Assembly (NCBI GenBank): GCA_041649115.1
Contig: JBAZNT010000003.1
Location: forward strand, 13,274 to 77,273
Direction of reading: 5' to 3'
Length of the DNA: 64,000 nt
From: Candidatus Omnitrophota bacterium
GTDB taxonomy: Bacteria; Omnitrophota; Gorgyraeia; Gygaellales; Profunditerraquicolaceae
Of the stretch, positions 37,188-57,105 are shown in pieces. The notes beneath the pieces were generated by a model, which was not told the origin of the DNA, made no database searches, and saw only the letters and a list, made by a program, of their open reading frames with translations. Numbering within the stretch: position 1 is the stretch's first letter; each line of letters starts with the position of its first letter. Both the position numbers and the translations under genes were made by a program.

Positions 37188-37559
37188 ATGTCCCGAAGCG
37201 AAAAAGGCATGGCTTTGTTCCTGGTTCTATCAGTGATTATGGTAGCTGCGGTTTTGGCGGGGATTGTTATGAACTTTACCCTTAACCAGATTGAGCTGAC
37301 CAGGCACAAGGCCCAGCGTATTAAGGCCTATTATGCCGCCCTGGCAGGTATGAACCTGGCCTTTGAAAAAATAAGGACTAATGCCGATGGTTGGAATGTT
37401 ACTTCTGTCCACTATCTCGGTCCCGGCCTTGAAGTTTCCGATCCCGATATACCCTACCCCGTTACCATAGATGTTGTTCAACAGCCAGACGGAATCAACT
37501 ACAACCTAAGTATTACCGTTAATTATACCTCAACCTTGCCATCCTTGCGCGGCCGTTAA
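37188..37559 (+). CDS. PilX/GspK-like minor pilin-type protein
   Basis: 123 aa with the N-terminal EKGMALFLVLSVIMV hydrophobic segment typical of PilX_N-type proteins, and 4 N-X-S/T sequons. Confidence 0.45.
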   Translation: MSRSEKGMALFLVLSVIMVAAVLAGIVMNFTLNQIELTRHKAQRIKAYYAALAGMNLAFEKIRTNADGWNVTSVHYLGPGLEVSDPDIPYPVTIDVVQQPDGINYNLSITVNYTSTLPSLRGR

Positions 37560-39482: not shown

Positions 39483-39491
39483 GACAAAAAG

Positions 39492-40459: not shown

Positions 40460-41922
40460 AGAATACCATCCGCACAATGTTTTTATCCGCTGCTTTAATC
40501 TCCTTGTTTATCATGCCGCAGTTAAATGCCGAGCAGGATTTGTTTTTTCCCGACCCCGATGCCACCATATCAATGGACCTGCAGGATGCCAACCTTAAGG
40601 ACGTGCTTAAGATATTCTCTATACAATCCGGCATGAACTTTATCGCATCAGAGGCCCTGCAGGACAGGAAACTTACCCTTTATCTGGATAAGGTCCCTAT
40701 CCAGGAGGCAATGGACAAGATATTTGCCGCCAATAACCTCTCTTATGAGTTTGACCCGAATTCCAACATCTTTATCGTTAAGGACTACGGGAAGCCGGAG
40801 GTGGAGACCATTACCAAGGTATATTACCTTAAATATGCCAGCGTCTCTACCTCACCGATTACTACCGAGGTATCTTCCCAGCTTAACAGCAAAGCCGGAG
40901 CGGACATCATCAACGCTATCAAGGATGTCTTAAGCCCGAAGGGCAAGGTCTCCGAGAACCTCCGGACCAACAGCCTGATTGTTACGGATATGCCCAGCAA
41001 GTTCCCGGTGATTGAGCACGTTATTTCACACCTCGATGTCTACTCGCCGCAGATACTTATTGAGGTAGAGATGCTTGACGTCAGCAAGAACGTAGTGGAT
41101 AAGCTTGGATTCGAGTTTGGCAACAGCCCTTTTACCCTGGTTGTGCCCGGTTCGCTCCATAATGCAAAGTTCTTTATGGGGGACGTCACATATAAATCCA
41201 TCAGCTCTATTACCTCGGCAACTGCAGGAGCGATTTCCTTCGGCTCTACTTATGCCGAGGTCCTGAATTACCTGCGTACCCAGACCGATACCAGGTATCT
41301 TGCCAGGCCAAAACTCCTGACACTTAACAACGAAACAGCCGAGATCAAGATTACTACCAATGAGTCCATAGGTATTGAGACTACCGAGGTATCGACCTCC
41401 GGTAGCGTTACCGCAGACCCGGAGAGGCAGGAGACCGGCGTATCGTTGAGGGTTACCCCCCAGGCCAATATTGAGACGGGGTTGATTACGATGTTTATCT
41501 ATCCAGAGGTAAGCGAAGCCAAGGAAGGAAATACCCTTACCTCCGGCAACCTTACCTATACCTTCCGTGACCCTGAGGTACGCAGCACTAAGTCCACCGT
41601 ACGCATCAGGGACGGAGAGACCGTTATCGTGGGAGGCCTTATCCGCAATGAATTTACCCAGACGACCAAGAAGCTTCCTATCTTAGGGGATATCCCTATT
41701 ATCGGAATGATGTTTAGGCATAAAGACAAGACCAAGGACACCAACCGCGAGCTCCTGGTTTTCATCACGCCCCGCATCGTAAAAGACTCTTACTACAAAA
41801 AGGCTGCCAAGGTAGCCAAGGGCGAGAGCGTGCCGGCCAGAGAGCAGAGCCCCGCCTCATCTTTGGTGAACCGCCAGGCAATGATAAACGCCAGGCTCAA
41901 CAGTTTGGAGAGGATGGAATAA
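40456..41922 (+). CDS. pilQ: Secretin (PilQ/GspD family)
   Basis: 488 aa with a signal peptide and the C-terminal secretin motif VPILGDIPIIGMMFR...ELLVFITPRIV. Confidence 0.85.
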   Translation: MKNTIRTMFLSAALISLFIMPQLNAEQDLFFPDPDATISMDLQDANLKDVLKIFSIQSGMNFIASEALQDRKLTLYLDKVPIQEAMDKIFAANNLSYEFDPNSNIFIVKDYGKPEVETITKVYYLKYASVSTSPITTEVSSQLNSKAGADIINAIKDVLSPKGKVSENLRTNSLIVTDMPSKFPVIEHVISHLDVYSPQILIEVEMLDVSKNVVDKLGFEFGNSPFTLVVPGSLHNAKFFMGDVTYKSISSITSATAGAISFGSTYAEVLNYLRTQTDTRYLARPKLLTLNNETAEIKITTNESIGIETTEVSTSGSVTADPERQETGVSLRVTPQANIETGLITMFIYPEVSEAKEGNTLTSGNLTYTFRDPEVRSTKSTVRIRDGETVIVGGLIRNEFTQTTKKLPILGDIPIIGMMFRHKDKTKDTNRELLVFITPRIVKDSYYKKAAKVAKGESVPAREQSPASSLVNRQAMINARLNSLERME

Positions 41923-41973
41923 GGTTTCGAGTTATGCTATAATTAACTTGTCGCGCAATAATAATCGCAAGAT

Positions 41974-43683
41974 ATGCCCGCAAAAGAAAAATACCTTAGA
42001 TTAGGGGAGTCCCTTCTCAAAGAAGGAGTTATCACCCAGCAGCAGTTAGAGCAGGCCATAAAGCTCCAGAAGCAGGAGGGGGGCAGGCTAGGCGAGATAC
42101 TTATAAGGCTGGGAATGATTAAAGAAGAACAGCTTGTAATTGCCTTAGGCAAACAGCTTAATATTCCATATTTTTCGCTCGGAAGCGACCTAAACCCGGC
42201 AGCCGAGCAGAACCTCATAGAGCTGGTACCCAAGGAATTCGCTATCCGCAATACGGTATTGCCCTTATCCCGCCATCTGGGTTCGCTGACGGTAGCGATG
42301 TTCGATCCTCTCGACCTTATCCTGATCGACAACCTTAGGAAGCTGACCGGCTGCGAGGTCAACCCTGTGATTGCAGCTAAATCCGATATCAATAAAGCAA
42401 TCGAGAAATTCTACGGCAAGTCCAAGATACTCCAGGATGCCGTAAATGCATCTTATGAGACGGAGAGCGACATTGCCTTTGAGAGCCTGGAATCCAACGA
42501 CCAGGAATTAAGCCTGGACAAGATTATAGCCCGCGCCGAAGAGGCCCCGGTTGTAAAACTGGTAGACCTGATTATCCGCCAGGCCATTGACGAGAGGGCT
42601 TCCGATATCCATATCGAGCCTTTTAAAGACAAGATATCCCTTCGTTACCGTATCGACGGCAAGCTTTATGAAATTCCGCCTCCTGCCAGGCATCTGCATC
42701 TTCCGATTATCTCGCGCATCAAGATTCTCGGGAAGCTTGATATCGCGGAAAAAAGACTTCCTCAGGACGGGGCGTTTCTGGTGAGGATGGAGGACCGGCC
42801 CATTGACATCAGGGTTTCAACCCTTCCTACCATCTATGGAGAGAAGGTGGTTATGAGGATTCTCGACCGCACCAGCGTACCTTTGGATCTCGTCCAGCTG
42901 GGATTTGAGCCTGCGCAGCTGGAACTGATACGCCGCGTTATAAAATCACCTTACGGTTTAATCTTTCTGACCGGTCCGACCGGATGCGGGAAAACAACAA
43001 CCCTGTATGCGATATTGAACGAAATAAAAAGTCCGACCAAGAACATCGTTACCGTAGAGGATCCCGTGGAGTATAAGTTAGACGGCATAAACCAGGTGCA
43101 GGTCAAGCCCGAGATAGGGCTGACCTTCGCTACTGCCCTGCGGCACTTCTTGAGGCAGGACCCCGATATTATGCTTGTCGGAGAAACCAGGGATCTTGAA
43201 ACGGCCCAGATAGGCGTGCGTTCCGCGCTTACGGGGCATCTGGTTTTCAGCACCCTCCATACCAATGATGCGCCTTCGGCTACGGTGCGTTTGGTAGATA
43301 TAGGCATAGAGCCTTACATGGTGGCGCCGTCTCTCTTGGCGGTGATAGGGCAGCGTCTTGTCAGGAAGCTTTGCCCGGACTGCAAGGAGGCATATGAGCC
43401 TACCCTGAAACAACTGGGAAACATTAAGCTTAATGCCGAACTGATATACCGGGCAAAAGGGTGCAATAAATGCGCCCAGATAGGATACCGCGGAAGGGCT
43501 GCCATTGCGGAGGTTATGATAATAGACGAAAGCGTGCGTGAATTAATTAACCAGAGGGCTTCTTACCTGACCGTGAGGGATGCTGCGATGGCGGCGGGGA
43601 TGCAGAGTTTGCGCGACATCGCCATAAAGAAAGTAGAAGCGGGTATTACCTCCCTGGAAGAAGCAATATCGGTTACGATGTAA
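41974..43683 (+). CDS. pilB: Type IV pilus / T2SS assembly ATPase (PilB/GspE/MshE family)
   Basis: 569 aa with Walker A GPTGCGKTTT, Asp/His boxes and a CPDC...CNKC tetracysteine. The N-terminus carries two RLGxxLLxxGxIxxxxLxxAxxxQ repeats. Confidence 0.9.
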   Translation: MPAKEKYLRLGESLLKEGVITQQQLEQAIKLQKQEGGRLGEILIRLGMIKEEQLVIALGKQLNIPYFSLGSDLNPAAEQNLIELVPKEFAIRNTVLPLSRHLGSLTVAMFDPLDLILIDNLRKLTGCEVNPVIAAKSDINKAIEKFYGKSKILQDAVNASYETESDIAFESLESNDQELSLDKIIARAEEAPVVKLVDLIIRQAIDERASDIHIEPFKDKISLRYRIDGKLYEIPPPARHLHLPIISRIKILGKLDIAEKRLPQDGAFLVRMEDRPIDIRVSTLPTIYGEKVVMRILDRTSVPLDLVQLGFEPAQLELIRRVIKSPYGLIFLTGPTGCGKTTTLYAILNEIKSPTKNIVTVEDPVEYKLDGINQVQVKPEIGLTFATALRHFLRQDPDIMLVGETRDLETAQIGVRSALTGHLVFSTLHTNDAPSATVRLVDIGIEPYMVAPSLLAVIGQRLVRKLCPDCKEAYEPTLKQLGNIKLNAELIYRAKGCNKCAQIGYRGRAAIAEVMIIDESVRELINQRASYLTVRDAAMAAGMQSLRDIAIKKVEAGITSLEEAISVTM

Positions 43684-43697
43684 TCCGGTCTTAAGCC

Positions 43698-44939
43698 ATG
43701 CCTAAATTTTTTTATATCGCGCGTGACAGCAAAGGCGCTAAGGTCTCGGGGGCAGAGGAGGCAGTTTCGAGCGACGAGCTTATCAGCCGCCTTCAGTCCA
43801 GGGGGCTGATAGTTATAAATGTAACCCTTGACTACGGCAAGAGCGTCCCCAGCCCAAGAACGGATGCCTTTGGTGCGCGGAGGCGTTTTCAGCACTACGG
43901 CGTTAACAGCCAGGACCTGGTAACCTTCTCCAGGCAGCTCGCTACAATGCTGGGCGCAGCCGTGCCGATACTTAAAAGCCTTGATACTATCGCCAGGCAG
44001 ATTCCAAGCCGCAGGATGTACGCCGTTATCAATGAGATGGTAAAAGATATGGAAGGAGGCTTAAGCCTGCACGAGGCGATGGCAAGGCATCCTAAGTTGT
44101 TTTCGGAGCTCTGGGTTAACCTGGTTGAAACAGGGGAGGCCAGCGGAAACCTGGCACTGGTTTTGGAGCGTTTAGCCAGCTACCTTGAAAGGAACGCGGC
44201 ATTTAAGAAAAAAATAGTCTCCAGCCTTATATATCCCGTGCTTCTTATATGCGCCAGTACCGCAGCGCTGATATTTTTGACCGTTAAGATCATACCGACA
44301 TTCGCCGATCTCTTTAAGGGGTTCAACGTTACGATGCCTACTTTTACGCGCGTACTTATCGACGTGAGTTTCTTTATAAGAAAATACGGCTTGACCGTAA
44401 TAGGCTTGATAGTTGTGGCGTTTTTTTTCGTACTCAGACCTTACCTTAAGACGAAGGAAGGCAGGAGGATACTTGAGAAAATCGAATTCAGTATTCCGGT
44501 ATTCGGAGAATTTTACCGCGGTCTTGTGGTAGAAAGGTTTTCCTCCAGCATGTCTACTTTGGTAGAGAGCGGGGTGCCCATACTTTACGCGCTTGAGATT
44601 GCCGAGCACAGCGTAGGTAATTACACTATGGCTGATATTGTGCGCAAGGTCAAGGAAGAGGTGCGCGAAGGAAAAACCCTGAACCATTCCCTGGAAGAAA
44701 GCGGCTTTTTTGAGCCGATGGTTGTCCAGATGCTGGCGGTCGGAGAGGAAGTAGGGGACTTGCCCCAGATGTTAAAACGCATTACGGTATTCTATCAGGA
44801 ATACGCAGAAACATTTTTAGGCAGGTTTACATCGATGTTTGAGCCGATCATGTTGATATTTATGGGGTTGGTTATCGGCTCGATGGTTGTAGGGATGTTC
44901 CTGCCAATATTCCAGATAGCAAGCATAGGCGGGCATTAG
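43698..44939 (+). CDS. pilC: Type IV pilus / T2SS platform protein (PilC/GspF family)
   Basis: 413 aa with two GspF-type repeats and 3 or more TM segments. Confidence 0.9.
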   Translation: MPKFFYIARDSKGAKVSGAEEAVSSDELISRLQSRGLIVINVTLDYGKSVPSPRTDAFGARRRFQHYGVNSQDLVTFSRQLATMLGAAVPILKSLDTIARQIPSRRMYAVINEMVKDMEGGLSLHEAMARHPKLFSELWVNLVETGEASGNLALVLERLASYLERNAAFKKKIVSSLIYPVLLICASTAALIFLTVKIIPTFADLFKGFNVTMPTFTRVLIDVSFFIRKYGLTVIGLIVVAFFFVLRPYLKTKEGRRILEKIEFSIPVFGEFYRGLVVERFSSSMSTLVESGVPILYALEIAEHSVGNYTMADIVRKVKEEVREGKTLNHSLEESGFFEPMVVQMLAVGEEVGDLPQMLKRITVFYQEYAETFLGRFTSMFEPIMLIFMGLVIGSMVVGMFLPIFQIASIGGH

Positions 44940-44983: not shown

Positions 44984-45388
44984 ATGGTTATGATGTCAAA
45001 GGGGCAGAGGCAGGGTTTTACGTTACTCGAGCTCATTATCGTTATCATCATTATCGGCATCCTAGCTACCTTGGGTTTTAGCCAGTACACCCGGTTGGTA
45101 GAGAGAGGCAGGACTGCCGAGGCCAAGAGCATCTTGGGCCAGATCCGCACTGCGCAGGCAGTGTATGAGCTGGAATACGGCGACTACTCCAGCGATATCT
45201 CTAATATCTCGATTGATGCTCCTTCCGGTTGCACAACTACCCATTATTTTTCTTATAGCGGAGACGCTACGGCAGCCACAGCCAGCAGGTGCAGCTCAGG
45301 AGGCAAGACCCCGGATTCATCCGCTGGATATGTCATTACCCTTAATTACAGCACCGGTGCGTTCGGCGGTTCAGCAGGTTATTATTAA
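44984..45388 (+). CDS. Type IV pilin / pseudopilin, copy 1
   Basis: Leader ...QRQG followed by FTLLELIIVIIIIGILA (class III signal, Glu+5). 134 aa. Confidence 0.85.
   Translation: MVMMSKGQRQGFTLLELIIVIIIIGILATLGFSQYTRLVERGRTAEAKSILGQIRTAQAVYELEYGDYSSDISNISIDAPSGCTTTHYFSYSGDATAATASRCSSGGKTPDSSAGYVITLNYSTGAFGGSAGYY
45013..45388 (+). repeat. Pilin tandem duplication, copy 1 (about 376 bp)
   Basis: Near-identical to 45515..45890 with a 502-bp offset. Differences are few and concentrated around 45148-45165. Confidence 0.9.
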
Positions 45389-45421
45389 AGCGGAGGGTGG
45401 CAGCAAACCAGATAAAAATAT

Positions 45422-45449
45422 TTGACAACTCAGGAAAATATGCTAAACT
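45422..45449 (+). promoter_or_regulatory. Sigma70-like promoter for pilin copy 2
   Basis: TTGACA (45422-45427), 16-nt spacer, TAAACT (45444-45449). A GAGGAGGG SD precedes ATG 45498. Confidence 0.5.
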
Positions 45450-45497
45450 AAAAAACAAGGTTTTATTGTCAATGTTTCACGGAAAGAGGAGGGTCTT

Positions 45498-45890
45498 ATG
45501 ATTAGAGGCGCTAGGGGTTTTACGTTACTCGAGCTCATTATCGTTATCATCATTATCGGCATCCTAGCTACCTTGGGTTTTAGCCAGTATACCCGCTTGG
45601 TAGAGAGAGGCAGGACTGCCGAGGCCAAGAGTATCTTGGGCCAGATCCGCACTGCGCAGGAGGCCTATAATCAGGAATACGGCGACTACTCCAGCGATAT
45701 CTCTAATATCTCGGTTGATGCTCCTTCCGGTTGCACAACTACCCATTATTTTTCTTATGGCGGAGACGCTACGGCAGCCACAGCCAGCAGGTGCAGCTCA
45801 GGAGGCAAGACCCCGGATTCATCCGCTGGATATGTCATTACCCTTAATTACAGCACCGGTGCGTTCGGCGGTTCAGCAGGTTATTATTAA
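45498..45890 (+). CDS. Type IV pilin / pseudopilin, copy 2
   Basis: Leader MIRGARG followed by FTLLELIIVIIIIGILA. 130 aa, near-identical to copy 1. Confidence 0.85.
   Translation: MIRGARGFTLLELIIVIIIIGILATLGFSQYTRLVERGRTAEAKSILGQIRTAQEAYNQEYGDYSSDISNISVDAPSGCTTTHYFSYGGDATAATASRCSSGGKTPDSSAGYVITLNYSTGAFGGSAGYY
45515..45890 (+). repeat. Pilin tandem duplication, copy 2
   Basis: See 45013..45388. Confidence 0.9.
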
Positions 45891-45920
45891 TTAATAACAA
45901 CATCCTGCAATTATATTTTT

Positions 45921-46364
45921 GTGAAGCGCCAGTGGCTTAAAAAAACGTACGGGGCTACTTTAATAGAGGTGCTTATTGTAATTCTGGTCATCGCTATTTT
46001 AGTAGCTTTAGCCCTGCCTAATTTTAAAAAATCTCGCGAGTACGCATTCAACAAGGAAGCAAAGGCCAACCTAAAGCTCATCCAGGCGGCAGAGCGCATT
46101 TATTATATTGAGAATGCCTTCTTCATGCCGCCAGGCGAAGATCAGGCCTCCAATTCTACGACTATCAACACCTATTTAAAACTTACCCTTCCGAGCGGCT
46201 CGGATACCAGCAATGTTTGGAATTATACCACTACCTCGCAAGGGACAGCCAATGCCACCCGCTCCGGAAGCGACGAAAGGGTATGGACGCTGCAGAAAGA
46301 CCAGGGGGATCCCCTTTGCTCGTGCCCTCCGGAAGCCAGTGAGTGTTATTGCCCCGCAGATTAA
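45921..46364 (+). CDS. Pilin-like protein with non-canonical +1 residue
   Basis: 147 aa with a GTG start. Leader ...KKTYG followed by ATLIEVLIVILVIAILVALA. It has a C-terminal Cys-rich tail and 3 sequons. Confidence 0.7.
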   Translation: MKRQWLKKTYGATLIEVLIVILVIAILVALALPNFKKSREYAFNKEAKANLKLIQAAERIYYIENAFFMPPGEDQASNSTTINTYLKLTLPSGSDTSNVWNYTTTSQGTANATRSGSDERVWTLQKDQGDPLCSCPPEASECYCPAD

Positions 46365-46368
46365 TACC

Positions 46369-46746
46369 ATGGTAATAATAAAAAAAGCCTTTACTTTAAT
46401 GGAAATTATGATTGTGATTGCGATTATCGGAATCCTCGTTGCCATTAGTCTCCCGAATTACGGCAAGATGAAAGATGCTAGCCTGGGCAAAGAGGCCAAC
46501 CTTACCTTAAAACTTATTCAGGACGCCGAACAGTTTTACCATATTGAACATGAAGCTTATTTGTCTTGCAGCAACTCAACGGCGATAAATTCCGGCCTGA
46601 AGCTTTACATACCTACCGGTTCCCCCAACTGGAACTATACGGTTAGCGTTAACGGCGACACCTTTGTTGCCATGGCCCAGCGCTCCGGCGGCAATACCAC
46701 CTATTGCATCAACCAGTCCAGCGAAGACACCTACGCATGCGAATAG
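46369..46746 (+). CDS. Pilin-like protein
   Basis: 125 aa from ATG 46369. MVIIKKA followed by FTLMEIMIVIAIIGILVA. 5 sequons. Confidence 0.7.
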   Translation: MVIIKKAFTLMEIMIVIAIIGILVAISLPNYGKMKDASLGKEANLTLKLIQDAEQFYHIEHEAYLSCSNSTAINSGLKLYIPTGSPNWNYTVSVNGDTFVAMAQRSGGNTTYCINQSSEDTYACE

Positions 46747-47123
46747 CCAAAGGCAACAAGGGCCTGACCATCCTGGAGATCCTCGTGGCATTGCTTATCC
46801 TGGCGCTGATTATAGGCGGGCTGGCCAATATATTCATTTCCAGCAAATGGTACCTTATCCATGGCCGTTCACTCATGACGGCAGCCGAATTGGCGAGATA
46901 TTTTCTGGACCCCTTGCATGGCAATGTCAGCCAGGAGACCTGGAATACCACCAGCTGGCTGGGGACGGGGGGCAGCTTTAATGATACCTACCAGACAAAG
47001 CACCTGATGGCCGGCAGTTTCTATTACAACTACACTTCAAAGTATAATATTACCGTTGATTCGCCTATCGGAAATTTAACCAAGGTAGTCCTCAATATCA
47101 CCTGGAATGAAGTCACTCCTTAG
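46737..47123 (+). CDS. Minor pseudopilin-like protein
   Basis: 128 aa from ATG 46737. ...GNKG followed by LTILEILVALLILA. 7 N-X-S/T sequons. Confidence 0.65.
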   Translation: MRIAKGNKGLTILEILVALLILALIIGGLANIFISSKWYLIHGRSLMTAAELARYFLDPLHGNVSQETWNTTSWLGTGGSFNDTYQTKHLMAGSFYYNYTSKYNITVDSPIGNLTKVVLNITWNEVTP

Positions 47124-47703
47124 AAACAGCGGGTTGACCCTTTTGGAGTTATTGATTGCCTTAATACTTACCGGTATCGTTGCGCTAAGCATATTCAGCC
47201 TGGATATCTTCGGGCACTACCACATCATCGGCTTAGATAAACGCAGGCGCGTGCAGAATCAGGTGTCCGATGTGCTGGAACATATGTCAAAGAATATCAT
47301 CAATGCCGTCGGTAATACCGCTATCAGCGGCATGAGCCCCGTAAATATTACCGATGGCCCCACCGTAGAGGTTTATCTAGATAAGCCCGGGGAAAGCGAG
47401 ACATCCGGAGACGGCCGTTACGGTACCGGCGGAGACATCTGGGTGGCGTATCGTTATAATAGCAGCGGTTATGAGATGAGATATTGCTCTGATTATGGAA
47501 CGGGTGATTGTAACGCGGATTGGTCGGTGATCGGGAAAAATATCTCGGAATTCTCGCCTACCTATACCCCCCCAGATAATTTTATAACCGTTAATATCAC
47601 CGGGTGCTGGAATTCCAGCGAGGCCAGTACCTGCGGCTCTCCTAATAATCCCGCCGTCAATATGACAACCCGTTTTAATATGCTTTCAGTAGCGCAGAAC
47701 TAG
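47107..47703 (+). CDS. Minor pseudopilin-like protein (PilW/GspJ-like size)
   Basis: 198 aa. ...RNSG followed by LTLLELLIALILTGIVA. 6 sequons. Confidence 0.65.
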   Translation: MKSLLRNSGLTLLELLIALILTGIVALSIFSLDIFGHYHIIGLDKRRRVQNQVSDVLEHMSKNIINAVGNTAISGMSPVNITDGPTVEVYLDKPGESETSGDGRYGTGGDIWVAYRYNSSGYEMRYCSDYGTGDCNADWSVIGKNISEFSPTYTPPDNFITVNITGCWNSSEASTCGSPNNPAVNMTTRFNMLSVAQN

Positions 47704-47762
47704 CTTTTATTTCTATCTTCTTGAGCAGCTTAAAGATGCGGATATTTTTAGCGGAGTTTTTA

Positions 47763-47791
47763 TTGTCAAAGCCTGAAATCTGTGTTAGAGT
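47763..47791 (+). promoter_or_regulatory. Possible extended -10 promoter for the OST/glycosyltransferase genes
   Basis: TTGTCA (47763-47768), 17-nt spacer ending in TGt, then TAGAGT (47786-47791). Confidence 0.35.
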
Positions 47792-47803
47792 ATAAAAACT
47801 GCG

Positions 47804-50308
47804 ATGGGAAAAAAGCGGATTGCGATTTTATCCTTAATACTGGTACTGGCGCTCAATATCTACTACCGTTGTTATCCTGTATTTTTCCCCCAGCTTAAAA
47901 TCCAGGCCCGCAATACCATACACAATAATATCCTTAATGCCGCAAGGGTCCAGGTGGAAAAGGAGTTTCCGGATTACGCCTCTTCCGTAAATGAAGGGCT
48001 CTCCAAGGCGCTGTTTTTAGATTACCTCAAGCATAACAAGGCCGGGGTAAAGGGCGACATCCAGGACGAATACCGGAGGCTGAAATCGAGGTACCAGGAC
48101 CGTGAAGGCCAGACGTATCTTTTGGAACTGGATGGCTGGCACTGGGCCAGGTATGTCGACAATGTTATAAGGCACGGCTACCCCGGAGATGCTATTATAG
48201 GCGGCAGGCAGGTTGATAATTATATGCTTGCGCCCTCGGGGCGTTATTTATCCTGGAATGACTTTTTTTTCTATCTCTCGGCTTTCCTCTATAAGGCATT
48301 TTCTTTATTCCATGCCGCCCCGCTGGCCACCTTCCTTTTTTACCTGCCCTTGTTTTTTATAGCGCTATTGCTTGTCCTCTTATATCTTTTTTGCCTCTCT
48401 GAATGGGACAATATCACTGCTTTTATTGCCTGCCTCTTCGTGGGGTTTTCCCCCGTATTCTTCGCACGCAGCTCGGCAGGGTGGTTTGATACCGATACGC
48501 TGAATCTTATCTTTCCGCTTATTATTATTTGGACATACCTCAAGAATTACAAGGGGGGTTCTTTAAGGAAAGGCCTGCCATGGGTTGCCTTTTCTGCTTT
48601 CTGGGTAGGCCTGTTCTGCTTTAGCTGGGCCAACTGGTGGTTTGTATTCATTGTGCTCGTAGTCTACGAATGCTACTGCGTTATTAATCTGGGTCTGGCG
48701 CGCTGGCAATACAAGGAGGACAATCACGCTTCCGTAAGCAAGCACGCCCTTACCTTATTTCTCTTTTTGCTTTTGAGCGCGATCTGGATTGTTATCTTTA
48801 GCGGGTTAAGCCCCCTGCGGGAACTCTATTATCAGATCAAGGAATCCCTCATCTTAAACAGGGCCCTAACGGATTCCATCTGGCCAAATGTATATAGCAC
48901 GGTAGGGGAGCTGAAAAAAACAACCTTCCCGCAGCTTCTTAATTCCATAGGCGGGATGTCCTTATTTTTATTGGGCATGTTTTCTCTCCTGGGATTATTT
49001 CTGGTTACGGCCCGTAACAAAAAATACACCCTTTTCCAGCGCGAGGCGATTATCATATTGACTTTTTGGTTCATTGCGATGCTTTTTGCATGCAAGAGCG
49101 GAATAAGATTTTCCGTTTTCCTTCTGATACCTCTGGGGGTTGCCTTGGGCTGGGGGGTAAGCGAGGCATACCGTTATTTCAGGGGACGCAAGGCGGCGCC
49201 CTGTCTATTAGCCGTAATCATCATTCTCTTGGGGCTCAAGCTTACTATCAATGCGCGCCATGCCGCAGAGAACACCCTGCCTTTTATGGATGACAACTGG
49301 TACAGCGTGCTTACTACCATAAAAGAGAAAACCCCGAAGGATGCCATCCTGAATTCATGGTGGGATTTCGGCGACTGGTTTAAGGCGGTAGCTGACAGGA
49401 GGGTCATCTTTGACGGACAGAGCCAGAATACGCCCCAGGCCTATTGGATGGCTTCATGTTTAATCAGCGATAACGAAGACAGGGCGATAGCGACGCTTCG
49501 CATGCTCAATAACGGCGGTAACGGGGCATTCGAGATTATTAACAGGAGCTTCCGGGACCCCTTGCGTTCGGTGAATTTCCTTCAGGGCTTGCTGTCTCTT
49601 GATGAGAATTCGGCAAAGAAACTCCTTGATGAGAGTTTCCCTCCAGGCGACGCTGCCGAAATAGCCGGCATCCTTTTCAAGGGCCCCGCGGAGGCCTATT
49701 TTATAGTGGATCAGAGCCTCCCGGATAAGATATCGGCCATATCATTTATCGGAAATTGGGATTTTAACAAGGCCTATATTAAAAACAATTTAACTAAAAA
49801 TAGCAAACAGGATTTAATAGCTTACCTTGTTAAATGCGGAGTGGATAGGAAATCTGCAGAGAGGCTTTATCTGGAAGCCGAATTGCTCCCTGGTCCCGAT
49901 ACCGATGATTGGCTCTCCAGCAGGCTTAAATTCAGGGGGGGGATGGTGAAAGGGTATGCGCAGGGCAAGGATATCCTTTTTAGTAACGGCATGATTTATA
50001 AACCAGGGCAGCAGCGGGTATATATCTATTCCGGATACCAGCGCGAATACAGGCTGCCTAAGAGCCTATTCCTTTTTAACCGCGGCAGATTAAAGGAAAT
50101 CAACTATCCGGATAGCGACCTCGATTATTCGGTTATAGTTTTCAATGACAAAGGGCAGTATTACGCCATCCCCCTTGACCGCAAGCTGGCTGCCAGCATG
50201 TTGGTGCGCCTGTATTTCTTTAACGGCGAAGGCCTCAGGCATTTTGAGCCTTTCCTGGAAAGAAAGGAATACGGCAGGTTAATCCGGGTTTTTAGAATCA
50301 AGTGGTGA
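47804..50308 (+). CDS. STT3/PglB/AglB-family oligosaccharyltransferase (GT-C)
   Basis: 834 aa with about 13 TM helices followed by a soluble C-terminal domain. Motifs are WWDFGDW (49358-49372 encode WWDFG), first-loop ELDGWHWAR (48125-48151, compare eukaryotic EFDPWFNYR) and WFDTDTL (DTD at 48488-48496, compare PglB YYDTDML). Confidence 0.8.
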   Translation: MGKKRIAILSLILVLALNIYYRCYPVFFPQLKIQARNTIHNNILNAARVQVEKEFPDYASSVNEGLSKALFLDYLKHNKAGVKGDIQDEYRRLKSRYQDREGQTYLLELDGWHWARYVDNVIRHGYPGDAIIGGRQVDNYMLAPSGRYLSWNDFFFYLSAFLYKAFSLFHAAPLATFLFYLPLFFIALLLVLLYLFCLSEWDNITAFIACLFVGFSPVFFARSSAGWFDTDTLNLIFPLIIIWTYLKNYKGGSLRKGLPWVAFSAFWVGLFCFSWANWWFVFIVLVVYECYCVINLGLARWQYKEDNHASVSKHALTLFLFLLLSAIWIVIFSGLSPLRELYYQIKESLILNRALTDSIWPNVYSTVGELKKTTFPQLLNSIGGMSLFLLGMFSLLGLFLVTARNKKYTLFQREAIIILTFWFIAMLFACKSGIRFSVFLLIPLGVALGWGVSEAYRYFRGRKAAPCLLAVIIILLGLKLTINARHAAENTLPFMDDNWYSVLTTIKEKTPKDAILNSWWDFGDWFKAVADRRVIFDGQSQNTPQAYWMASCLISDNEDRAIATLRMLNNGGNGAFEIINRSFRDPLRSVNFLQGLLSLDENSAKKLLDESFPPGDAAEIAGILFKGPAEAYFIVDQSLPDKISAISFIGNWDFNKAYIKNNLTKNSKQDLIAYLVKCGVDRKSAERLYLEAELLPGPDTDDWLSSRLKFRGGMVKGYAQGKDILFSNGMIYKPGQQRVYIYSGYQREYRLPKSLFLFNRGRLKEINYPDSDLDYSVIVFNDKGQYYAIPLDRKLAASMLVRLYFFNGEGLRHFEPFLERKEYGRLIRVFRIKW

Positions 50309-50314: not shown

Positions 50315-51472
50315 ATGAAAATCGCCTTTATCTACGATGTAATCTATCCTTACGTGAAAGGCGGCGCAGAGAAGAGGAATTGGGAACTGGCCCGCCGGCT
50401 CGCCGCTAAAGGCCACGAGATACACATCTTCGGGGTAAAGTCCTGGGATGGACCGCGCTGCATCATGGATAGCGGAGTCTATCTTCACGGCGTCTCTCGG
50501 CCAAGAAGCCTCTATCTTGGTAGCGGCAGAAGGAGTATAAGGCAGGTTTTGTTTTTTTCGGTTTCTGTCATAGCCCCTCTTTTGACCTCCCGTTTCGATA
50601 TTATTGATTGCTGTGCCTTTCCTTACCTGCCTTTCTTTGCGGTCAGGATAATATCCTGGTTAAAAAAAATCCCCCTGGTTGTGACCTGGCAGGAGGTCTG
50701 GGGAGATTATTGGTATGACTATCTGGGTTATCTTAAGGGCGTCCCTGCCAGGGGCATCGAGACAGCCGTGATTAAATTCGCTGATAATATCGTCGTGCAT
50801 TCCGGTAAGGTTAGAGACGAACTCGTCGCAAGCGGCGTGAACAGAATGATAAGCGTTATACCGCATGGGGCAGATTTTGAATTGATAGACGATGCTCCTG
50901 CCGCCGCGGAAACGCCGGATTTGATATTCAGCGGCAGGCTGATAAGGGATAAAAATACGGATATATTGGTAAAAGCGGTAGCCAGGATTAAGGAGACCCT
51001 TGCCGGGGTAAAGTGTTTTATTATCGGGGAGGGCCCGGAAAAGAAACGCCTGCTTGAGCTGAGGAACGGGCTTGGACTGGAGAAAAACATAGTTTTTATG
51101 GATTTTCAGCCCTACCGATACCTGATTTCCCTGATGAAAGCCAGCAAAATTTTTATACTCCCTTCCCAACGAGAAGGCTTTGCTATTGCGGTTATTGAGG
51201 CATTGGCATGCGGGCTGCCGGTTATTACCGTAAGGCATCCCATGAACGCCGCGGTAGGGCTTATCAGGGATGGCGAAAACGGATTCATTTCCGATTTAAA
51301 CCCCTACGATATCGCGAACAAATCCCTGGCGTTGCTGCAGGACGTTCACTTAAGGAAGAGGTTTTCCGCGGCCGCTAAAAAGAGCGCGGAGGGGTATGAC
51401 TGGGATAGTATAACGTCCGGGTATGAGGATTTTTATTTCCGCTTACTTAAGCAGGGGAGTATTAAGATATGA
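50315..51472 (+). CDS. GT4-family glycosyltransferase
   Basis: 385 aa GT-B protein with the E-x7-E region REGFAIAVIEALACGLPVI. Confidence 0.8.
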   Translation: MKIAFIYDVIYPYVKGGAEKRNWELARRLAAKGHEIHIFGVKSWDGPRCIMDSGVYLHGVSRPRSLYLGSGRRSIRQVLFFSVSVIAPLLTSRFDIIDCCAFPYLPFFAVRIISWLKKIPLVVTWQEVWGDYWYDYLGYLKGVPARGIETAVIKFADNIVVHSGKVRDELVASGVNRMISVIPHGADFELIDDAPAAAETPDLIFSGRLIRDKNTDILVKAVARIKETLAGVKCFIIGEGPEKKRLLELRNGLGLEKNIVFMDFQPYRYLISLMKASKIFILPSQREGFAIAVIEALACGLPVITVRHPMNAAVGLIRDGENGFISDLNPYDIANKSLALLQDVHLRKRFSAAAKKSAEGYDWDSITSGYEDFYFRLLKQGSIKI

Positions 51473-52584
51473 GGATACTGCAGACGCCGGCAAGGTTTTT
51501 CCCTTATAGCGGAGGAGTGGAGAACTATGTTTATTATTCCTCGCGGGAACTCTCCCGGCGCGGGCACCGCGTAAGTATTGTTTGCGCCGATGAGCCGCCT
51601 GTCGGCAGCGGTAGCGTAGACGACATTAAGGTCAAAAGACTATCCTATCTAGGCAAATTATCCAATACCAATATTACCCCCGCGCTCGCCCCGCTATTGC
51701 TTAGAGAGGACCCCGATATCATACATACCCATCTGCCGACTCCCTGGAGCAGCGATATCAGCGCCGTTGTATCCTTATTGAAGAATAAGCCGCTATTCCT
51801 TACCTATCACAATGATATCAGCGGAAAAGGGCTTTTTGGACTTGCCAGCGGATTATACAACATATCGGCCTTGAAGTTATTGCTTGCGGCAGCGCGGGCA
51901 ATCTTTATTACCCACTCAGGTTATCTAGAGAATTCGCTGTTCTTAAGGGGTTTTAGAGACAAGCTCATAGTCAGCCCGCCGGGAGTAGATTTTGATAAGT
52001 TCAAACCGCTGCATTATGACAGAGAAAAATGCGCTACGCTATTTTTCGTCTCCAGGTTAGACGGGTACCATCATTATAAAGGGCTGGACTTGCTTTTGGA
52101 GAGCGTAGAGAAGATAAGCCGGGATGGCGCAATCCGTTTATATGTCGCAGGAGAGGGAGAACTCTTAGGTTATTACAGGAAGGCTGCCAGAGGCAGGGGG
52201 CTGGAAGGAAAGGTTTGTTTTTTGGGGGCCCTGGACAGTAATCGTTTGGCCGAATATTATAATCGCGCCGATATTACGGTAATGCCGTCTCTTTCGTCGC
52301 GGCAGGAAGGTTTTGGCCTGGCGGCCTTGGAGGCAATGGCCTGTGCCAAGCCGGTGGTAGTCAGTTCTGTCGCAGGAGTGGCTAGAGAGGTAAGGGATAG
52401 AAGGTGCGGATTGGTAGCGGGTGCCGGAAACGTAAGCGAATTAACGCAGGCAATAAGCTATCTATTGAGAAACCCCCAGGCCAGAAGCGAAATGGGCGGT
52501 AATGCCTATGAACTGGTCAGGGGAAAATACAGTTGGAGCAAACACGCTGATATTGTTGAAAAGGAGTATTTAAGGGCAATCTGA
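51469..52584 (+). CDS. GT4-family glycosyltransferase
   Basis: 371 aa with QEGFGLAALEAMACAKPVV. Confidence 0.8.
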   Translation: MRILQTPARFFPYSGGVENYVYYSSRELSRRGHRVSIVCADEPPVGSGSVDDIKVKRLSYLGKLSNTNITPALAPLLLREDPDIIHTHLPTPWSSDISAVVSLLKNKPLFLTYHNDISGKGLFGLASGLYNISALKLLLAAARAIFITHSGYLENSLFLRGFRDKLIVSPPGVDFDKFKPLHYDREKCATLFFVSRLDGYHHYKGLDLLLESVEKISRDGAIRLYVAGEGELLGYYRKAARGRGLEGKVCFLGALDSNRLAEYYNRADITVMPSLSSRQEGFGLAALEAMACAKPVVVSSVAGVAREVRDRRCGLVAGAGNVSELTQAISYLLRNPQARSEMGGNAYELVRGKYSWSKHADIVEKEYLRAI

Positions 52585-53850
52585 ATGAAGGCATGCATTA
52601 TCGCCAATCTTTATCCGCCACACGATATTGGAGGCGCAGAGGTATACCTAGAGAGAATATCCGAGGAGTTGTCGCGGGAATGCAAGGTAATCCTGATTAC
52701 GAGTTCCCCTTACCATGGCCTGCGCTCGTTGCTGCCCAGGGAATCGGCGAGAGGCAATATCAAGATTTATCGCTTTAGCCCCCTTAATATCTACCATAAC
52801 CCGGAAGCGAAAGCCAGGCCGGCGGTCCAGAGGTTCTTATGGCACATCATTGACATTTGGAATTTGCATTCATATCTGGTTATCCGCCTTATCCTCAGGA
52901 AAGAGGAGCCAGACATTGTGCATACTCATAACCTGAGCGGTTTTTCTCTGAGCGCCATCGCGGCGGCAAAGGGCTTGAGGCTCCCGCTCATCCATAGCTG
53001 CCACGATTTTTCTTTACTCTGCCCCTTTGCTACCCTCAAGTGCCGCCGGCAGCGTTATGGTACATGCGTTTCCGCATCGTTTTGCTGCCTCGTTTACCGC
53101 GCCATAAAGCGTTTTATTGTTAACAGGCATAAGCCAGACCTGGCAATCATGCCGTCTCGGCACACGGAAACGGTATTCCTCCAGAAACGATTCTTTACCG
53201 GTATAAAAAGAGAGGTGATTCCTTATTGTATCGATACCCAAACGCATCCCCTGCCGATAGCAAAGCAGGACGGGAATTTCAATGTATTGTATGTGGGGCA
53301 GCTCGTAGAGCATAAGGGAGTCCATCTTTTAATAAAGGCATTCAGCGGTCTGCCTTATCAGCGCATGCGTTTGCATATCGTGGGTGACGGGGATTACGCA
53401 GCCGTGCTCAAGAGGCTCTCCAGAGGAGACGAAAGAATAAAATTTTACGGCAGGGTGGCCAATAGCGAGGTATCCGGGTTTTACCGTTTAGCGGATGTTA
53501 CGGTAGTACCTTCCTTATGGCCGGAATTTCTCGGTATAGTTATTCTGGAAAGTTTCAGTATGTCTACCCCGGTAATCGCCAGCGCAATAGGCGGGATAAC
53601 CGAAATAGTGCGCCAGGGCTATAACGGTTTTTTATTTAAAGCAGGGGATGAAACCCAGCTCAAGGGGTTGATAGAGAAGGTTTTTTTAGAGAGGCCTATC
53701 CTTGATCATCTAAGGGATAATGCCTGGAGGAGTTCGCTCGATTTCGGATGCCCCAGCCACGCCGGCAGGTTAAGATGGATCTACCGGCAGGTAGCCGGAC
53801 TCAAAAATTCCGGCAGTAAGGATGGACTCGATGCGCGTCGCCCTGATTGA
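52585..53850 (+). CDS. GT4-family glycosyltransferase
   Basis: 421 aa with PEFLGIVILESFSMSTPVIAS and an N-terminal GGAEVY motif. Confidence 0.75.
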   Translation: MKACIIANLYPPHDIGGAEVYLERISEELSRECKVILITSSPYHGLRSLLPRESARGNIKIYRFSPLNIYHNPEAKARPAVQRFLWHIIDIWNLHSYLVIRLILRKEEPDIVHTHNLSGFSLSAIAAAKGLRLPLIHSCHDFSLLCPFATLKCRRQRYGTCVSASFCCLVYRAIKRFIVNRHKPDLAIMPSRHTETVFLQKRFFTGIKREVIPYCIDTQTHPLPIAKQDGNFNVLYVGQLVEHKGVHLLIKAFSGLPYQRMRLHIVGDGDYAAVLKRLSRGDERIKFYGRVANSEVSGFYRLADVTVVPSLWPEFLGIVILESFSMSTPVIASAIGGITEIVRQGYNGFLFKAGDETQLKGLIEKVFLERPILDHLRDNAWRSSLDFGCPSHAGRLRWIYRQVAGLKNSGSKDGLDARRPD

Positions 53851-57084: not shown

Positions 57085-57105
57085 ACAAAAAGATTGGTGA
57101 AGAAT

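What the first reader, a model, noticed from the sequence alone, without database searches (positions are those of the whole stretch)
44984..50308. STT3/PglB/AglB-type oligosaccharyltransferase directly downstream of sequon-rich type IV pilins: candidate N-glycosylated bacterial pilus
Seen in sequence, oligosaccharyltransferase:
- The 834-aa membrane protein carries WWDFGDW (WWDFG at 49358-49372), ELDGWHWAR in the first loop (48125-48151) and WFDTDTL (DTD at 48488-48496).
- These are the three catalytic or signature regions of STT3-family OSTs.

Seen in sequence, sequon counts by hand:
- The seven pilin-like proteins have 2, 2, 3, 5, 7, 6 and 4 N-X-S/T sequons. The last figure is the PilX-like gene at 37188.
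- That is 29 sequons in about 985 aa.
- The 128-aa pseudopilin at 46737 alone has NVS, NTT, NDT, NYT, NIT, NLT and NIT.
- In the first major-pilin copy both Asn residues are in sequons. In the second copy two of three are.
- For comparison I count 4 in the 488-aa secretin and 1 in the 393-aa ArgG.
- The sequons lack the Asp/Glu at -2 that Campylobacter PglB requires.

Established knowledge:
- Archaeal pilins and archaellins are N-glycosylated by AglB.
- Bacterial type IV pilins are normally O-glycosylated by PilO/PglL-type enzymes.
- Bacterial N-OSTs are known mainly from Campylobacterota and a few Desulfobacterota.

Inference:
- This locus encodes an archaeal or eukaryote-style (short-sequon) N-glycosylation system dedicated to a type IV filament in a bacterium.
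Basis: partly seen in the sequence, partly recalled or inferred. Interest (0 to 1): 0.8.

Follow-up and report, generated by a model that had tools for sequence, protein, structure and literature searches.

The report
Bacterial pilus genes with N-glycosylation enzyme
An uncultured Omnitrophota bacterium carries an intact asparagine-glycosylating enzyme directly after its type IV pilus genes. The pilus subunits hold about three times more N-X-S/T sites than chance predicts, so this is probably the first bacterial pilus decorated the way archaeal pili are.

Summary
The 834-aa protein (47804-50308) is an STT3-family oligosaccharyltransferase: Pfam E 2.6e-32, and its predicted structure best matches PglB, then AglB and STT3. 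Every catalytic residue I could map is invariant in 24 homologues.

The hand-counted sequons (2, 2, 3, 5, 7, 6, 4 = 29) are exact.
- Window pilins: 29 sequons against 9.7 expected from composition.
- The other 50 window ORFs: 68 against 72.5.

The pattern holds in relatives.
- In 22 Omnitrophota loci with the same pilin-STT3 layout, pilins hold 306 sequons against 138.5 expected (z 15). NxT is preferred over NxS, and there is no Asp/Glu excess at -2.
- Four homologous pilus clusters without an adjacent STT3 show 32 against 24.5.
- E. coli pseudopilins show 8 against 8.4.

The enzyme is an orthologue of neither Campylobacter PglB nor the archaeosortase-linked archaeal subfamily (TIGR04154). It belongs to an Omnitrophota-wide STT3 clade.

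I found no paper describing it.

Most likely the enzyme N-glycosylates the pilins at short N-X-S/T sequons in the periplasm before filament assembly. This rests on sequence evidence only. Whether the enzyme serves the pilus exclusively, and what the glycan is, remain untested.

I rate it a new variant of a known kind.

The parts
37188..37559 (+). PilX/GspK-like minor pilin-like protein, 123 aa, with 4 sequons. One of them (NFT at residue 29) lies in the hydrophobic N-terminal segment.
   Evidence: Weak NCBIfam GspK match (28 bits, below cutoff). Sequons 4 against 0.97 expected.
37914..44939 (+). Type IV filament assembly machinery: PilM/N fusion (37914-39482), PilO (39492-40016), PilP/T2SSB-like (40013-40459), secretin (40456-41922), assembly ATPase with an MshE-type c-di-GMP-binding N-terminus (41974-43683), and platform protein PilC/GspF (43698-44939).
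   Evidence: Pfam families. NCBIfam scores fall between PilB and GspE, PilC and GspF, and PilQ and GspD, all below equivalog cutoffs. The secretin has 4 sequons against 4.6 expected.
44993..45388 (+). Major pilin copy 1 (131 aa by the database gene call; the longest ORF starts at 44984). Sequons NIS and NYS, which are both of its Asn.
   Evidence: PF07963 N_methyl 31.4 bits; sequons; 121 of 130 residues identical to copy 2.
45498..45890 (+). Major pilin copy 2 (130 aa). Sequons N70 (NIS) in the alpha-beta loop and N117 (NYS) at the end of a strand.
   Evidence: AF2 model pLDDT 77: helix 10-61, loop 62-84, four strands. More than 100 homologues are at 57-92% identity.
45921..46364 (+). Pilin-like protein, 147 aa, 3 sequons (NST, NYT, NAT).
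   Evidence: N_methyl 21.6 bits; sequons.
46339..46746 (+). Pilin-like protein, 135 aa by the gene call (the longest ORF starts at 46213), 5 sequons (NLT, NST, NYT, NTT, NQS).
   Evidence: Gene call; N_methyl 25.5 bits; sequons.
46737..47123 (+). Minor pilin, 128 aa, 7 sequons in 10 Asn. The C-terminal N-I-T-W site recurs in many orthologues.
   Evidence: 7 against 1.5 expected; 0 of 1000 shuffles reach 7. Orthologue alignment.
47107..47703 (+). Minor pilin, 198 aa, 6 sequons.
   Evidence: N_methyl 23 bits; sequons; orthologue alignment.
47804..50308 (+). STT3-family N-oligosaccharyltransferase, 834 aa. Key residues: D110, D229-x-D231, T366-V-G-E369, R435, W519-W-D-F-G523, D636..K642.
   Evidence: PF02516 113 bits, E 2.6e-32. 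AF2 pLDDT 87.8. Foldseek top hit PglB 5ogl, E 2.4e-21. Invariant residues.
50315..53850 (+). Three GT4-family glycosyltransferases (50315-51472, 51469-52584, 52585-53850). They are presumed to build the lipid-linked glycan on the cytoplasmic side.
   Evidence: Pfam Glyco_transf_4/Glycos_transf_1. Weak NCBIfam similarity to PglJ, PglH and Agl16, all below cutoffs.
53822..55237 (+). B12-binding radical SAM enzyme. It is a candidate sugar-modifying (methylating) enzyme and the last gene of the cluster before the tRNA and integrase.
   Evidence: PF02310 + PF04055. Nearest NCBIfam families are B12-rSAM methyltransferases, below cutoffs. rSAM genes follow STT3 in most relatives.

Best explanation
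The locus is one co-oriented, tightly packed gene string. It encodes a type IV filament machine, two major and four to five minor pilins, an STT3-family N-oligosaccharyltransferase, and glycan-building enzymes.

Proposed mechanism, all steps inferred:
1. The three GT4 enzymes, with the radical-SAM enzyme, assemble and modify an oligosaccharide on a polyprenyl-phosphate carrier at the cytoplasmic face.
2. A flippase moves it to the periplasmic face. Relatives carry a Wzx-type gene here; none is present in this window.
3. The OST has its WWDFG pocket and its D110/D229/D231/E369 metal site in the periplasm. It transfers the glycan en bloc to Asn in short N-X-S/T sequons on the globular domains of pilins. 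At that stage the pilins are still anchored in the inner membrane by their N-terminal helix.
4. PilB/PilC/PilMNOPQ then polymerise the glycosylated subunits.

What is shown:
- the enzyme family and its intact catalytic motifs;
- the gene order and its conservation;
- the strong, composition-controlled, NxT-biased sequon excess, which is specific to pilins and largely confined to clusters with an adjacent STT3.

What is inferred:
- actual glycan transfer, the carrier lipid, the glycan itself, the timing, and the biological role (shielding, solubility or adhesion of the filament of a probably host-dependent nanobacterium).
For: Enzyme:
- Pfam STT3 113 bits against a cutoff of 24.5.
- The AF2 model (pLDDT 87.8) shows 13 helices consistent with 13 transmembrane segments, plus a C-terminal domain.
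- The best structural matches are PglB, AglB and STT3A/B, with E 1e-21 to 1e-11.
- phmmer aligns WFDTDTL with PglB YYDTDML, TVGE with TIME (E319), IRF with LRF (R375), and WWDFG with WWDYG.
- All these residues plus D110 are invariant in 24 homologues at 43-81% identity.

Substrates:
- Window pilins hold 29 sequons against 9.7 expected; 50 other ORFs hold 68 against 72.5.
- 97 pilins in 22 linked loci hold 306 against 138.5 (z 15).
- The reversed motif count is 159, only slightly above that expectation (about 2 SD) against z 15 for the forward motif.
- NxT:NxS is 211:95 although T and S are about equally abundant. Control ORFs show 167:244.
- 20 of 22 loci are above expectation, and 16 are individually at P<=0.05.
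- Several sequon positions recur among orthologues.

Linkage:
- The same pilin-STT3 order is found at 60-81% and at 39-50% STT3 identity.

Negative controls:
- Four homologous clusters without an adjacent STT3 have ratio 1.30, z 1.8.
- E. coli K-12 pseudopilins hold 8 against 8.35.

No O-OTase (Wzy_C) gene is in the locus.
Against: - There is no biochemical or proteomic evidence.
- No initiating phosphoglycosyltransferase, flippase or prepilin peptidase is present in the window.
- Six of 22 linked loci show no significant sequon excess, so adjacency does not always go with enrichment.
- The four 'unlinked' clusters still show a slight excess (1.3x), and one of their major pilins has 3 of 3 Asn in sequons. 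Their genomes may carry STT3 elsewhere, so the contrast is not a clean presence/absence test.
- Loci are phylogenetically related, so z-scores overstate independence.
- Pilins were detected by a regular expression, and control ORFs are longest-ORF calls.
- Many Omnitrophota STT3 genes are not pilus-linked, so the enzyme class is not intrinsically pilus-specific.
Confidence: 0.7

Rival explanations
1. A general periplasmic N-glycosylation system, as in Campylobacter. The OST modifies many exported proteins. The pilins are only conspicuous substrates, and the gene adjacency reflects co-inheritance rather than dedication.
For: - More than half of the Omnitrophota STT3 genes surveyed sit in stand-alone glycosylation clusters (GT2-TM, PMT_2, GT2, rSAM) with no pilin genes nearby.
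- Some genomes carry two paralogues (L018/L061, L045/L055, L021/L033).
- Three loci put STT3 beside a Tad-like cluster instead.
Against: - Other exported proteins of the same locus show no sequon excess: secretin 4 against 4.6, PilO 1 against 2.1, PilP-like 0 against 0.8, TPR protein 4 against 2.9.
- Control ORFs in 22 loci have ratio 0.91.
- The pilin-linked STT3 genes cluster together in the tree, which suggests a specialised paralogue.
Confidence: 0.2
2. The filament is a T2SS-like periplasmic pseudopilus (a secretion piston), not a surface pilus. The glycosylated subunits would then be pseudopilins.
For: - ATPase, platform and secretin score about equally against GspE/GspF/GspD and PilB/PilC/PilQ models.
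- The upstream 123-aa protein resembles GspK.
- No PilT retraction ATPase is in the window.
- Omnitrophota T2SS/T4P-like loci have been proposed as secretion systems for giant proteins (10.1101/2023.11.21.568195).
Against: - PilM/N/O are present rather than GspC/L/M.
- The best, though non-significant, fold matches of the major pilin are type IVa pilins.
- The best NCBIfam match of the major pilins is PilA.
- Heavy glycan decoration makes most sense for an exposed fibre; this last point is inference.
Confidence: 0.15
3. The sequon excess is unrelated to the OST. It would be a structural or compositional property of these Asn/Ser/Thr-rich pilin domains, and the STT3 homologue would act on another acceptor.
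For: - Pilin globular domains are rich in N (7.7%), S and T.
- Six linked loci lack a significant excess.
- Unlinked clusters retain a 1.3x ratio.
Against: - Shuffles preserve composition and still give z 15.
- The reversed motif [ST]-x-N is at most weakly enriched (159 against 138.5, about 2 SD), far below the forward motif.
- The NxT preference is the known OST signature and is absent from control ORFs.
- E. coli pseudopilins show no excess.
- The WWDxG pocket that binds the +2 Ser/Thr is invariant.
Confidence: 0.08

Closest known systems
Archaeal AglB-dependent N-glycosylation of type IV pilins and archaellins (e.g. Methanococcus, Haloferax, Sulfolobus)
   Same: - A single-subunit STT3-family OST.
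- Substrates are type IV filament subunits with class III signal peptides.
- A short N-X-S/T sequon without a -2 acidic residue.
- Many sites per subunit.
- The family profile scores highest against A. fulgidus AglB among solved structures (57 bits).
- A DK-like D..K motif rather than PglB's MI motif (inferred).
   Different: - The host is a bacterium with an outer-membrane secretin, PilMNOPQ and a bacterial-type PilB.
- The protein does not reach the archaeal subfamily model (TIGR04154: 37.5 bits against a cutoff of 450).
- The carrier lipid is presumably undecaprenyl rather than dolichyl phosphate (untested).
- Common descent was not tested.
Campylobacter PglB / pgl general N-glycosylation system (also Helicobacter pullorum and Desulfovibrio PglB homologues)
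   Same: - A bacterial, periplasmic, single-subunit OST with the same fold. It is the best Foldseek match (E 2.4e-21, TM 0.67 on the target).
- D-x-D, T-I/V-x-E, R375 and WWDxG align residue for residue.
- GT4 enzymes weakly similar to PglJ/PglH are encoded next door.
   Different: - 13-14% sequence identity.
- PglB equivalog score 50.5 against a cutoff of 1300.
- No counterpart of Arg331, and no D/E preference at -2.
- An extra ~95-residue N-terminal segment and a larger C-terminal domain.
- Encoded inside a pilus operon. No PglB substrate known to me is a type IV pilin (own knowledge; literature searches returned only O-linked pilin systems in bacteria).
Bacterial O-linked pilin glycosylation (PilO/TfpO, PglL, TfpW, PglS)
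   Same: - An oligosaccharyltransferase gene is placed immediately next to the pilin genes.
- Transfer is en bloc from a lipid carrier in the periplasm.
- One site lies in the alpha-beta loop of the major pilin, as in Neisseria PilE (comparison from own knowledge).
   Different: - A different enzyme superfamily (Wzy_C/O-antigen-ligase-like or TfpW GT-C), and the acceptor is Ser/Thr, not Asn.
- No Wzy_C protein is in this locus.

Membership tests
STT3/AglB/PglB N-oligosaccharyltransferases (Pfam PF02516, CAZy GT66) | Significant match to the STT3 family model above the curated threshold | tested here: met
   PF02516 113.3 bits against a gathering score of 24.5, E 2.6e-32, residues 96-459.
STT3/AglB/PglB N-oligosaccharyltransferases (Pfam PF02516, CAZy GT66) | GT-C fold with 13 transmembrane helices followed by a periplasmic/luminal C-terminal domain | tested here: met
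   AF2 model pLDDT 87.8, pTM 0.83. Its helix pattern is consistent with 13 TM segments, with a mixed alpha/beta domain at 490-834. The top 19 Foldseek PDB hits are all OST catalytic subunits.
STT3/AglB/PglB N-oligosaccharyltransferases (Pfam PF02516, CAZy GT66) | WWDxG motif that binds the +2 Ser/Thr of the sequon | tested here: met
   WWDFG at residues 519-523 aligns with PglB WWDYG, AglB WWDYG and STT3A WWDYG. W519, W520, D521 and G523 are invariant in 24 homologues.
STT3/AglB/PglB N-oligosaccharyltransferases (Pfam PF02516, CAZy GT66) | Catalytic acidic residues: Asp in external loop 1, D-x-D/E, and Glu of the TIXE/SVSE motif in external loop 5; plus the Arg that binds the pyrophosphate | tested here: met
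   D229/D231, E369 (in T-V-G-E) and R435 align with PglB D154/D156, E319 and R375. D110 in L-D-G-W-H-W-A matches the PglB N-D-G-Y-A-F-A motif by inspection only and was not checked by superposition. All are invariant.
STT3/AglB/PglB N-oligosaccharyltransferases (Pfam PF02516, CAZy GT66) | DK or MI motif completing the Ser/Thr pocket | tested here: inconclusive
   A conserved V-D636-x-[ST]-[ML]-x-x-K642-[IM]-x-x-I motif exists and resembles DK-type motifs.
STT3/AglB/PglB N-oligosaccharyltransferases (Pfam PF02516, CAZy GT66) | Transfer of a lipid-linked glycan to Asn demonstrated | not testable with these tools
   Needs biochemistry or glycoproteomics.
PglB sensu stricto (NCBIfam NF050801, Campylobacter-type) | Equivalog-level sequence score | tested here: not met
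   50.5 bits against a cutoff of 1300; 13-14% identity in structural alignments.
PglB sensu stricto (NCBIfam NF050801, Campylobacter-type) | Extended sequon D/E-X-N-X-S/T read by Arg331 | tested here: not met
   Arg331 aligns with I382, and no conserved Arg/Lys occurs at 373-392. D/E at -2 occurs in 25 of 308 pilin sequons (8%) against a 9.6% background. In the window it occurs in 1 of 29.
Archaeal AglB, archaeosortase-associated subfamily (TIGR04154) | Subfamily-level sequence score | tested here: not met
   37.5 bits against a cutoff of 450. The family profile nevertheless gives its best PDB hit to A. fulgidus AglB (57 bits).
Type IV pilins / pseudopilins (prepilin-type N-terminal cleavage/methylation domain) | Class III signal peptide with G/A-[FLM]-T-L-x-E and a hydrophobic helix | tested here: met
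   PF07963 is above its 21.2-bit cutoff for all six proteins at 44984-47703. The 37188 protein has no Glu5 motif and only a sub-threshold GspK match.
Type IV pilins / pseudopilins (prepilin-type N-terminal cleavage/methylation domain) | Cognate assembly machinery (ATPase, platform, alignment complex, secretin) and prepilin peptidase | tested here: inconclusive
   PilM/N, PilO, secretin, T2SSE ATPase and T2SSF platform lie directly upstream. No prepilin peptidase was found in the window.
Bacterial O-oligosaccharyltransferases for pilins (PglL/PilO, Wzy_C PF04932) | Wzy_C-domain membrane protein next to the pilin gene | tested here: not met
   No PF04932 hit among the called genes from 37.9 to 57 kb.

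The most novel reading that the evidence does not exclude
Omnitrophota as a phylum would possess an undescribed, short-sequon, AglB-like N-glycosylation system, possibly acquired from archaea. One paralogue lineage would have become wired into type IV filament operons. These include both the T4aP-like pilus seen here and the Tad-like secretion locus that precedes the giant 'archaeovorin' genes. N-glycosylated filaments would then be part of how these host-dependent nanobacteria contact their prey or hosts. The enzymes would also be a new source of relaxed-specificity bacterial OSTs for glycoengineering.
Probability: 0.35. Interest if true: 0.85.

Novelty: new variant of a known kind. Interest (0 to 1): 0.7.

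Why it matters
**Current picture.** To my knowledge, bacterial type IV pilins have only been shown to carry O-linked glycans. The literature searches here are consistent with that. Bacterial STT3-type N-glycosylation is known essentially from Campylobacterota and some Desulfobacterota, where it needs an extended acidic sequon.

**What this would add.** An N-glycosylated bacterial pilus with the short archaeal/eukaryotic sequon would:
- extend OST-dependent N-glycosylation to a PVC-related candidate phylum;
- show that the pairing of an N-OST with type IV filament subunits exists on both sides of the bacteria-archaea divide;
- offer compact single-subunit bacterial OSTs that may accept plain N-X-S/T sites, which is of practical interest for glycoprotein production in E. 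coli.

**Testability.** The prediction can be tested directly by co-expression and mass spectrometry.

Tried and rejected
- **Fold search of the major pilin.** The best hits were type IVa pilins, but E was 0.25 or worse. This is not usable to decide pilus against pseudopilus.
- **Promoter and terminator scan of 44.8-50.5 kb.** Counts equal the shuffled expectation, so it says nothing about operon structure.
- **Literature searches.**
  - No paper joins Omnitrophota/Omnitrophica with STT3, oligosaccharyltransferase or N-linked glycosylation.
  - The Omnitrophica plus N-glycosylation hits concern a commercial fucosidase.
  - Lombard 2016 (PMC4973528) mentions only 'a few bacterial homologues' nested among euryarchaeal sequences.
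- **Phylogeny.** The relative scores conflict: the fold matches PglB best and the profile matches AglB best.
- **Whole-genome presence/absence of STT3.** This could not be done. Only loci of up to about 22 kb were available, so the four 'unlinked' clusters are an imperfect control.
- **Hypotheses rejected.**
  - Composition artefact: rejected by the shuffles and by the reversed motif.
  - Pseudogene: rejected because the reading frame is intact and the residues are invariant.
  - O-linked system: rejected because no Wzy_C gene is present.

Full report
**1. What is in the window**

From about 35 kb to 55.2 kb all genes lie on the + strand with short gaps or overlaps. In order:
- ExbB, ExbD and a TonB-like protein;
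- a PilX/GspK-like protein (37188-37559);
- a PilM/N fusion, PilO and a PilP/T2SSB-like protein;
- a secretin, a PilB/GspE-type ATPase and PilC/GspF;
- two nearly identical major pilins (121 of 130 residues identical);
- four further pilin-like genes;
- the 834-aa membrane protein;
- three GT4 glycosyltransferases;
- a B12-binding radical SAM enzyme.

Upstream of 32 kb the window holds housekeeping genes for fatty-acid, leucine, arginine and lysine synthesis, plus UvrA. The 834-aa protein is 100% identical to a GenBank entry named 'MAG: STT3 domain-containing protein [Candidatus Omnitrophota bacterium]'.

**2. Check of the observation**

The three motifs translate exactly as quoted at the quoted coordinates. 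The sequon counts are exact, and so are the comparator counts for the secretin and ArgG. One correction: 28 of the 29 sequons, not all, lack Asp/Glu at -2. KEANLT is the exception.

**3. The enzyme**

Family and fold:
- Pfam STT3 matches at 113 bits, E 2.6e-32. The STT3/PglB core domain gives a weak second hit.
- An AlphaFold2 model built on 24 homologues has pLDDT 87.8. Its helix pattern fits 13 transmembrane segments followed by a C-terminal alpha/beta domain.
- Foldseek against the PDB returns only oligosaccharyltransferases at the top: C. lari PglB (E 2.4e-21), A. fulgidus AglB (2.6e-14), and human and yeast STT3 (about 1e-13). Other GT-C enzymes follow far behind.

Catalytic residues:

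| Query | C. lari PglB |
|---|---|
| W-F-D229-T-D231-T-L | Y-Y-D154-T-D156-M-L |
| T366-V-G-E369 | T316-I-M-E319 |
| I-R435-F | L-R375-F |
| W519-W-D-F-G | W457-W-D-Y-G |

These residues are invariant across 24 homologues of 43-81% identity. So is D110, in L-D-G-W-H-W-A. D110 resembles the PglB N-D-G-Y-A-F-A motif holding D56; I matched it by inspection, not by superposition.

Sequon reading and family placement:
- PglB Arg331 reads the -2 acidic residue. It aligns with I382, and no conserved basic residue occurs at 373-392.
- A conserved D636-x-x-[ML]-x-x-K642 motif may be a DK-type motif, but this is unverified.
- The protein is far below the equivalog or subfamily cutoffs for PglB (50.5 against 1300) and for the archaeosortase-linked AglB subfamily (37.5 against 450).
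- A profile of the family scores A. fulgidus AglB highest among solved structures (57 bits), against about 30 for PglB and 31-37 for eukaryotic STT3.
- I conclude it is a separate STT3 clade. Its relation to the three classical groups is unresolved.

**4. Are the pilins really sequon-rich?**

Within the window:

| Set | Observed | Expected from shuffles | Per 1000 aa | Asn in sequons |
|---|---|---|---|---|
| 7 pilin-like proteins | 29 | 9.7 +/- 2.9 (max of 1000 shuffles: 20) | 29 | 49% |
| 50 other ORFs | 68 | 72.5 +/- 8.8 | 3.6 | 9% |

Other exported proteins of the locus are not enriched: secretin 4 against 4.6, PilO 1 against 2.1, PilP-like 0 against 0.8, and the TPR protein 4 against 2.9.

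**5. Relatives**

A scan of one genome per GTDB species found 117 relatives, and 78 loci were kept. Almost all are labelled Omnitrophota.

Gene context:
- Of the 47 loci with at least 2.5 kb upstream (species-representative genomes plus the window), 18 have two or more prepilin genes within 3.5 kb upstream on the same strand.
- With shorter contigs and one locus retrieved separately, 22 loci including the window show the layout.
- In a neighbour-joining tree these lie among the first 34 of 61 tips, and none among the last 27.
- A relative at 64% identity has the full order: PilMN, O, P, Q, B, C, two pilins, four minor pilins, STT3, three GT4, radical SAM enzymes and a Wzx-type flippase.
- The unlinked STT3 genes sit in a conserved module: STT3, a GT2 with a C-terminal TM domain, PMT_2 (GT-C), GT2 and radical SAM.
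- Three loci place STT3 beside a PPIase-RcpC-secretin-TadZ/A cluster.

Sequon statistics across the 22 linked loci:
- The globular parts of 97 pilins hold 306 sequons against 138.5 +/- 10.9 expected (ratio 2.2, z 15), or 27 per 1000 aa.
- The reversed motif [ST]-x-N occurs 159 times, only about 2 SD above expectation.
- NxT outnumbers NxS 211:95, although Thr and Ser are about equally common.
- Control ORFs of the same loci give 411 against 451, with NxT:NxS of 167:244.
- Asp/Glu at -2 occurs in 8% of sequons against a 9.6% background.

Further points:
- Per locus, 20 of 22 exceed expectation and 16 do so at P<=0.05. Six do not, so enrichment is common but not universal.
- Alignments of orthologous minor pilins show recurring sites, such as the C-terminal N-I-T-W, together with much turnover.
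- 116 homologues of the major pilin hold 135 sequons against 70.9. A third have none.

**6. Negative controls**

- Nine E. coli K-12 (pseudo)pilins give 8 against 8.35.
- More telling are four pilus clusters with the same gene order and 65-69% identical major pilins but no STT3 downstream. Their pilin genes are followed by AmmeMemoRadiSam (in two of the four), RsmE and MiaB genes.
- These four give 32 against 24.5 (ratio 1.30, z 1.8, 12 per 1000 aa).
- The contrast with the linked clusters supports a functional tie. However, those genomes could carry STT3 elsewhere, and the sample is small.

**7. Mechanism proposed**

The shown and inferred steps are listed under 'best explanation'. The geometry is favourable. 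Prepilins sit in the inner membrane with their globular domain in the periplasm, where the OST active site lies. In the major pilin model, N70 lies in the low-confidence alpha-beta loop and N117 at the end of a strand.

**8. Open points**

- The machinery scores equally well as T4aP or T2SS, although PilM/N/O favour T4aP.
- No prepilin peptidase, initiating glycosyltransferase or flippase lies in the window.
- The glycan cluster ends at a tRNA-Ala gene, followed by a serine integrase and low-GC DNA. This may have displaced the genes seen in the 64% relative.

**9. Novelty**

No paper in the searchable library links Omnitrophota with STT3, OST or N-linked glycosylation. Every bacterial pilin-glycosylation paper returned by the searches concerns O-linked systems. 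West-Roberts et al. describe the Tad-like secretion locus of Omnitrophota without mentioning STT3. The gene is annotated generically in GenBank.

The kind of system, an N-OST acting on type IV filament subunits, is well known in archaea. Its occurrence in a bacterium with a short sequon is a new variant and is so far only predicted.

Noticed in passing
window 55487-64000: tRNA-Ala(CGC) lies at 55495-55570. The 3' end of a large serine integrase gene (55487-57010, minus strand) overlaps it. A Cro/CI-type HTH follows at 57639-57899. GC then drops from about 0.49 to 0.34. The low-GC stretch holds unknown ORFs, a DnaJ-domain protein (60398-61273), DUF6804 (61239-61592) and an Hsp70-like protein (61552-63249, phrog_22485 E 1e-106). 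This is probably an integrated mobile element carrying a DnaJ/Hsp70 pair. It sits where a 64% relative has further radical SAM genes and a Wzx flippase.
   Followed up: partly
L083/L031 10001-22500; also L063 and L018: In three other Omnitrophota genomes the STT3 gene sits beside a PPIase (Rotamase), RcpC, secretin and TadZ/TadA cluster with small Flp-like pilins. This is the locus type that West-Roberts et al. 2023 report upstream of giant 'archaeovorin' genes. One 55-aa Flp-like pilin has three sequons (NLT, NKT, NVT) in its roughly 25 exposed residues, while two others have none.
   Followed up: partly
L084 and about 30 other loci, downstream of STT3: A conserved module follows STT3: a GT2 with a C-terminal TM domain (polyprenyl-phosphate sugar synthase-like), PMT_2 (GT-C), GT2 and one to three B12-radical SAM enzymes. 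It suggests periplasmic extension of the glycan from lipid-phosphate monosaccharide donors, as in archaea and the eukaryotic ER. The window has three GT4 genes instead.
   Followed up: partly
window 44993-45890 and homologues P0121-P0240: The major pilin is unusually conserved for a pilin: 57-92% identity over its full length in 120 database clusters. Features that are invariant or conserved in at least 90% of homologues are Cys79/Cys99, G-G-K-x-P and a C-terminal G-Y-Y. It is present as two tandem copies, 93% identical at the protein level and 95% at the DNA level here. Relatives have two or three copies.
   Followed up: partly
window 41974-43683: The pilus assembly ATPase carries an N-terminal MshE-type c-di-GMP-binding motif (NF053729: 62.9 bits against a cutoff of 38). 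This suggests c-di-GMP control of filament assembly.
   Followed up: no
window 35026-36698; L087 1-1154: ExbB, ExbD and a TonB-like protein lie directly upstream of the pilus cluster, both in the window and in an STT3-less homologous cluster. This is a conserved association of unknown meaning.
   Followed up: no
window 356-2119: A second GT-C-type glycosyltransferase: a PMT_2 domain fused to TPR repeats, 587 aa. It may be another periplasmic protein or glycan glycosyltransferase.
   Followed up: no
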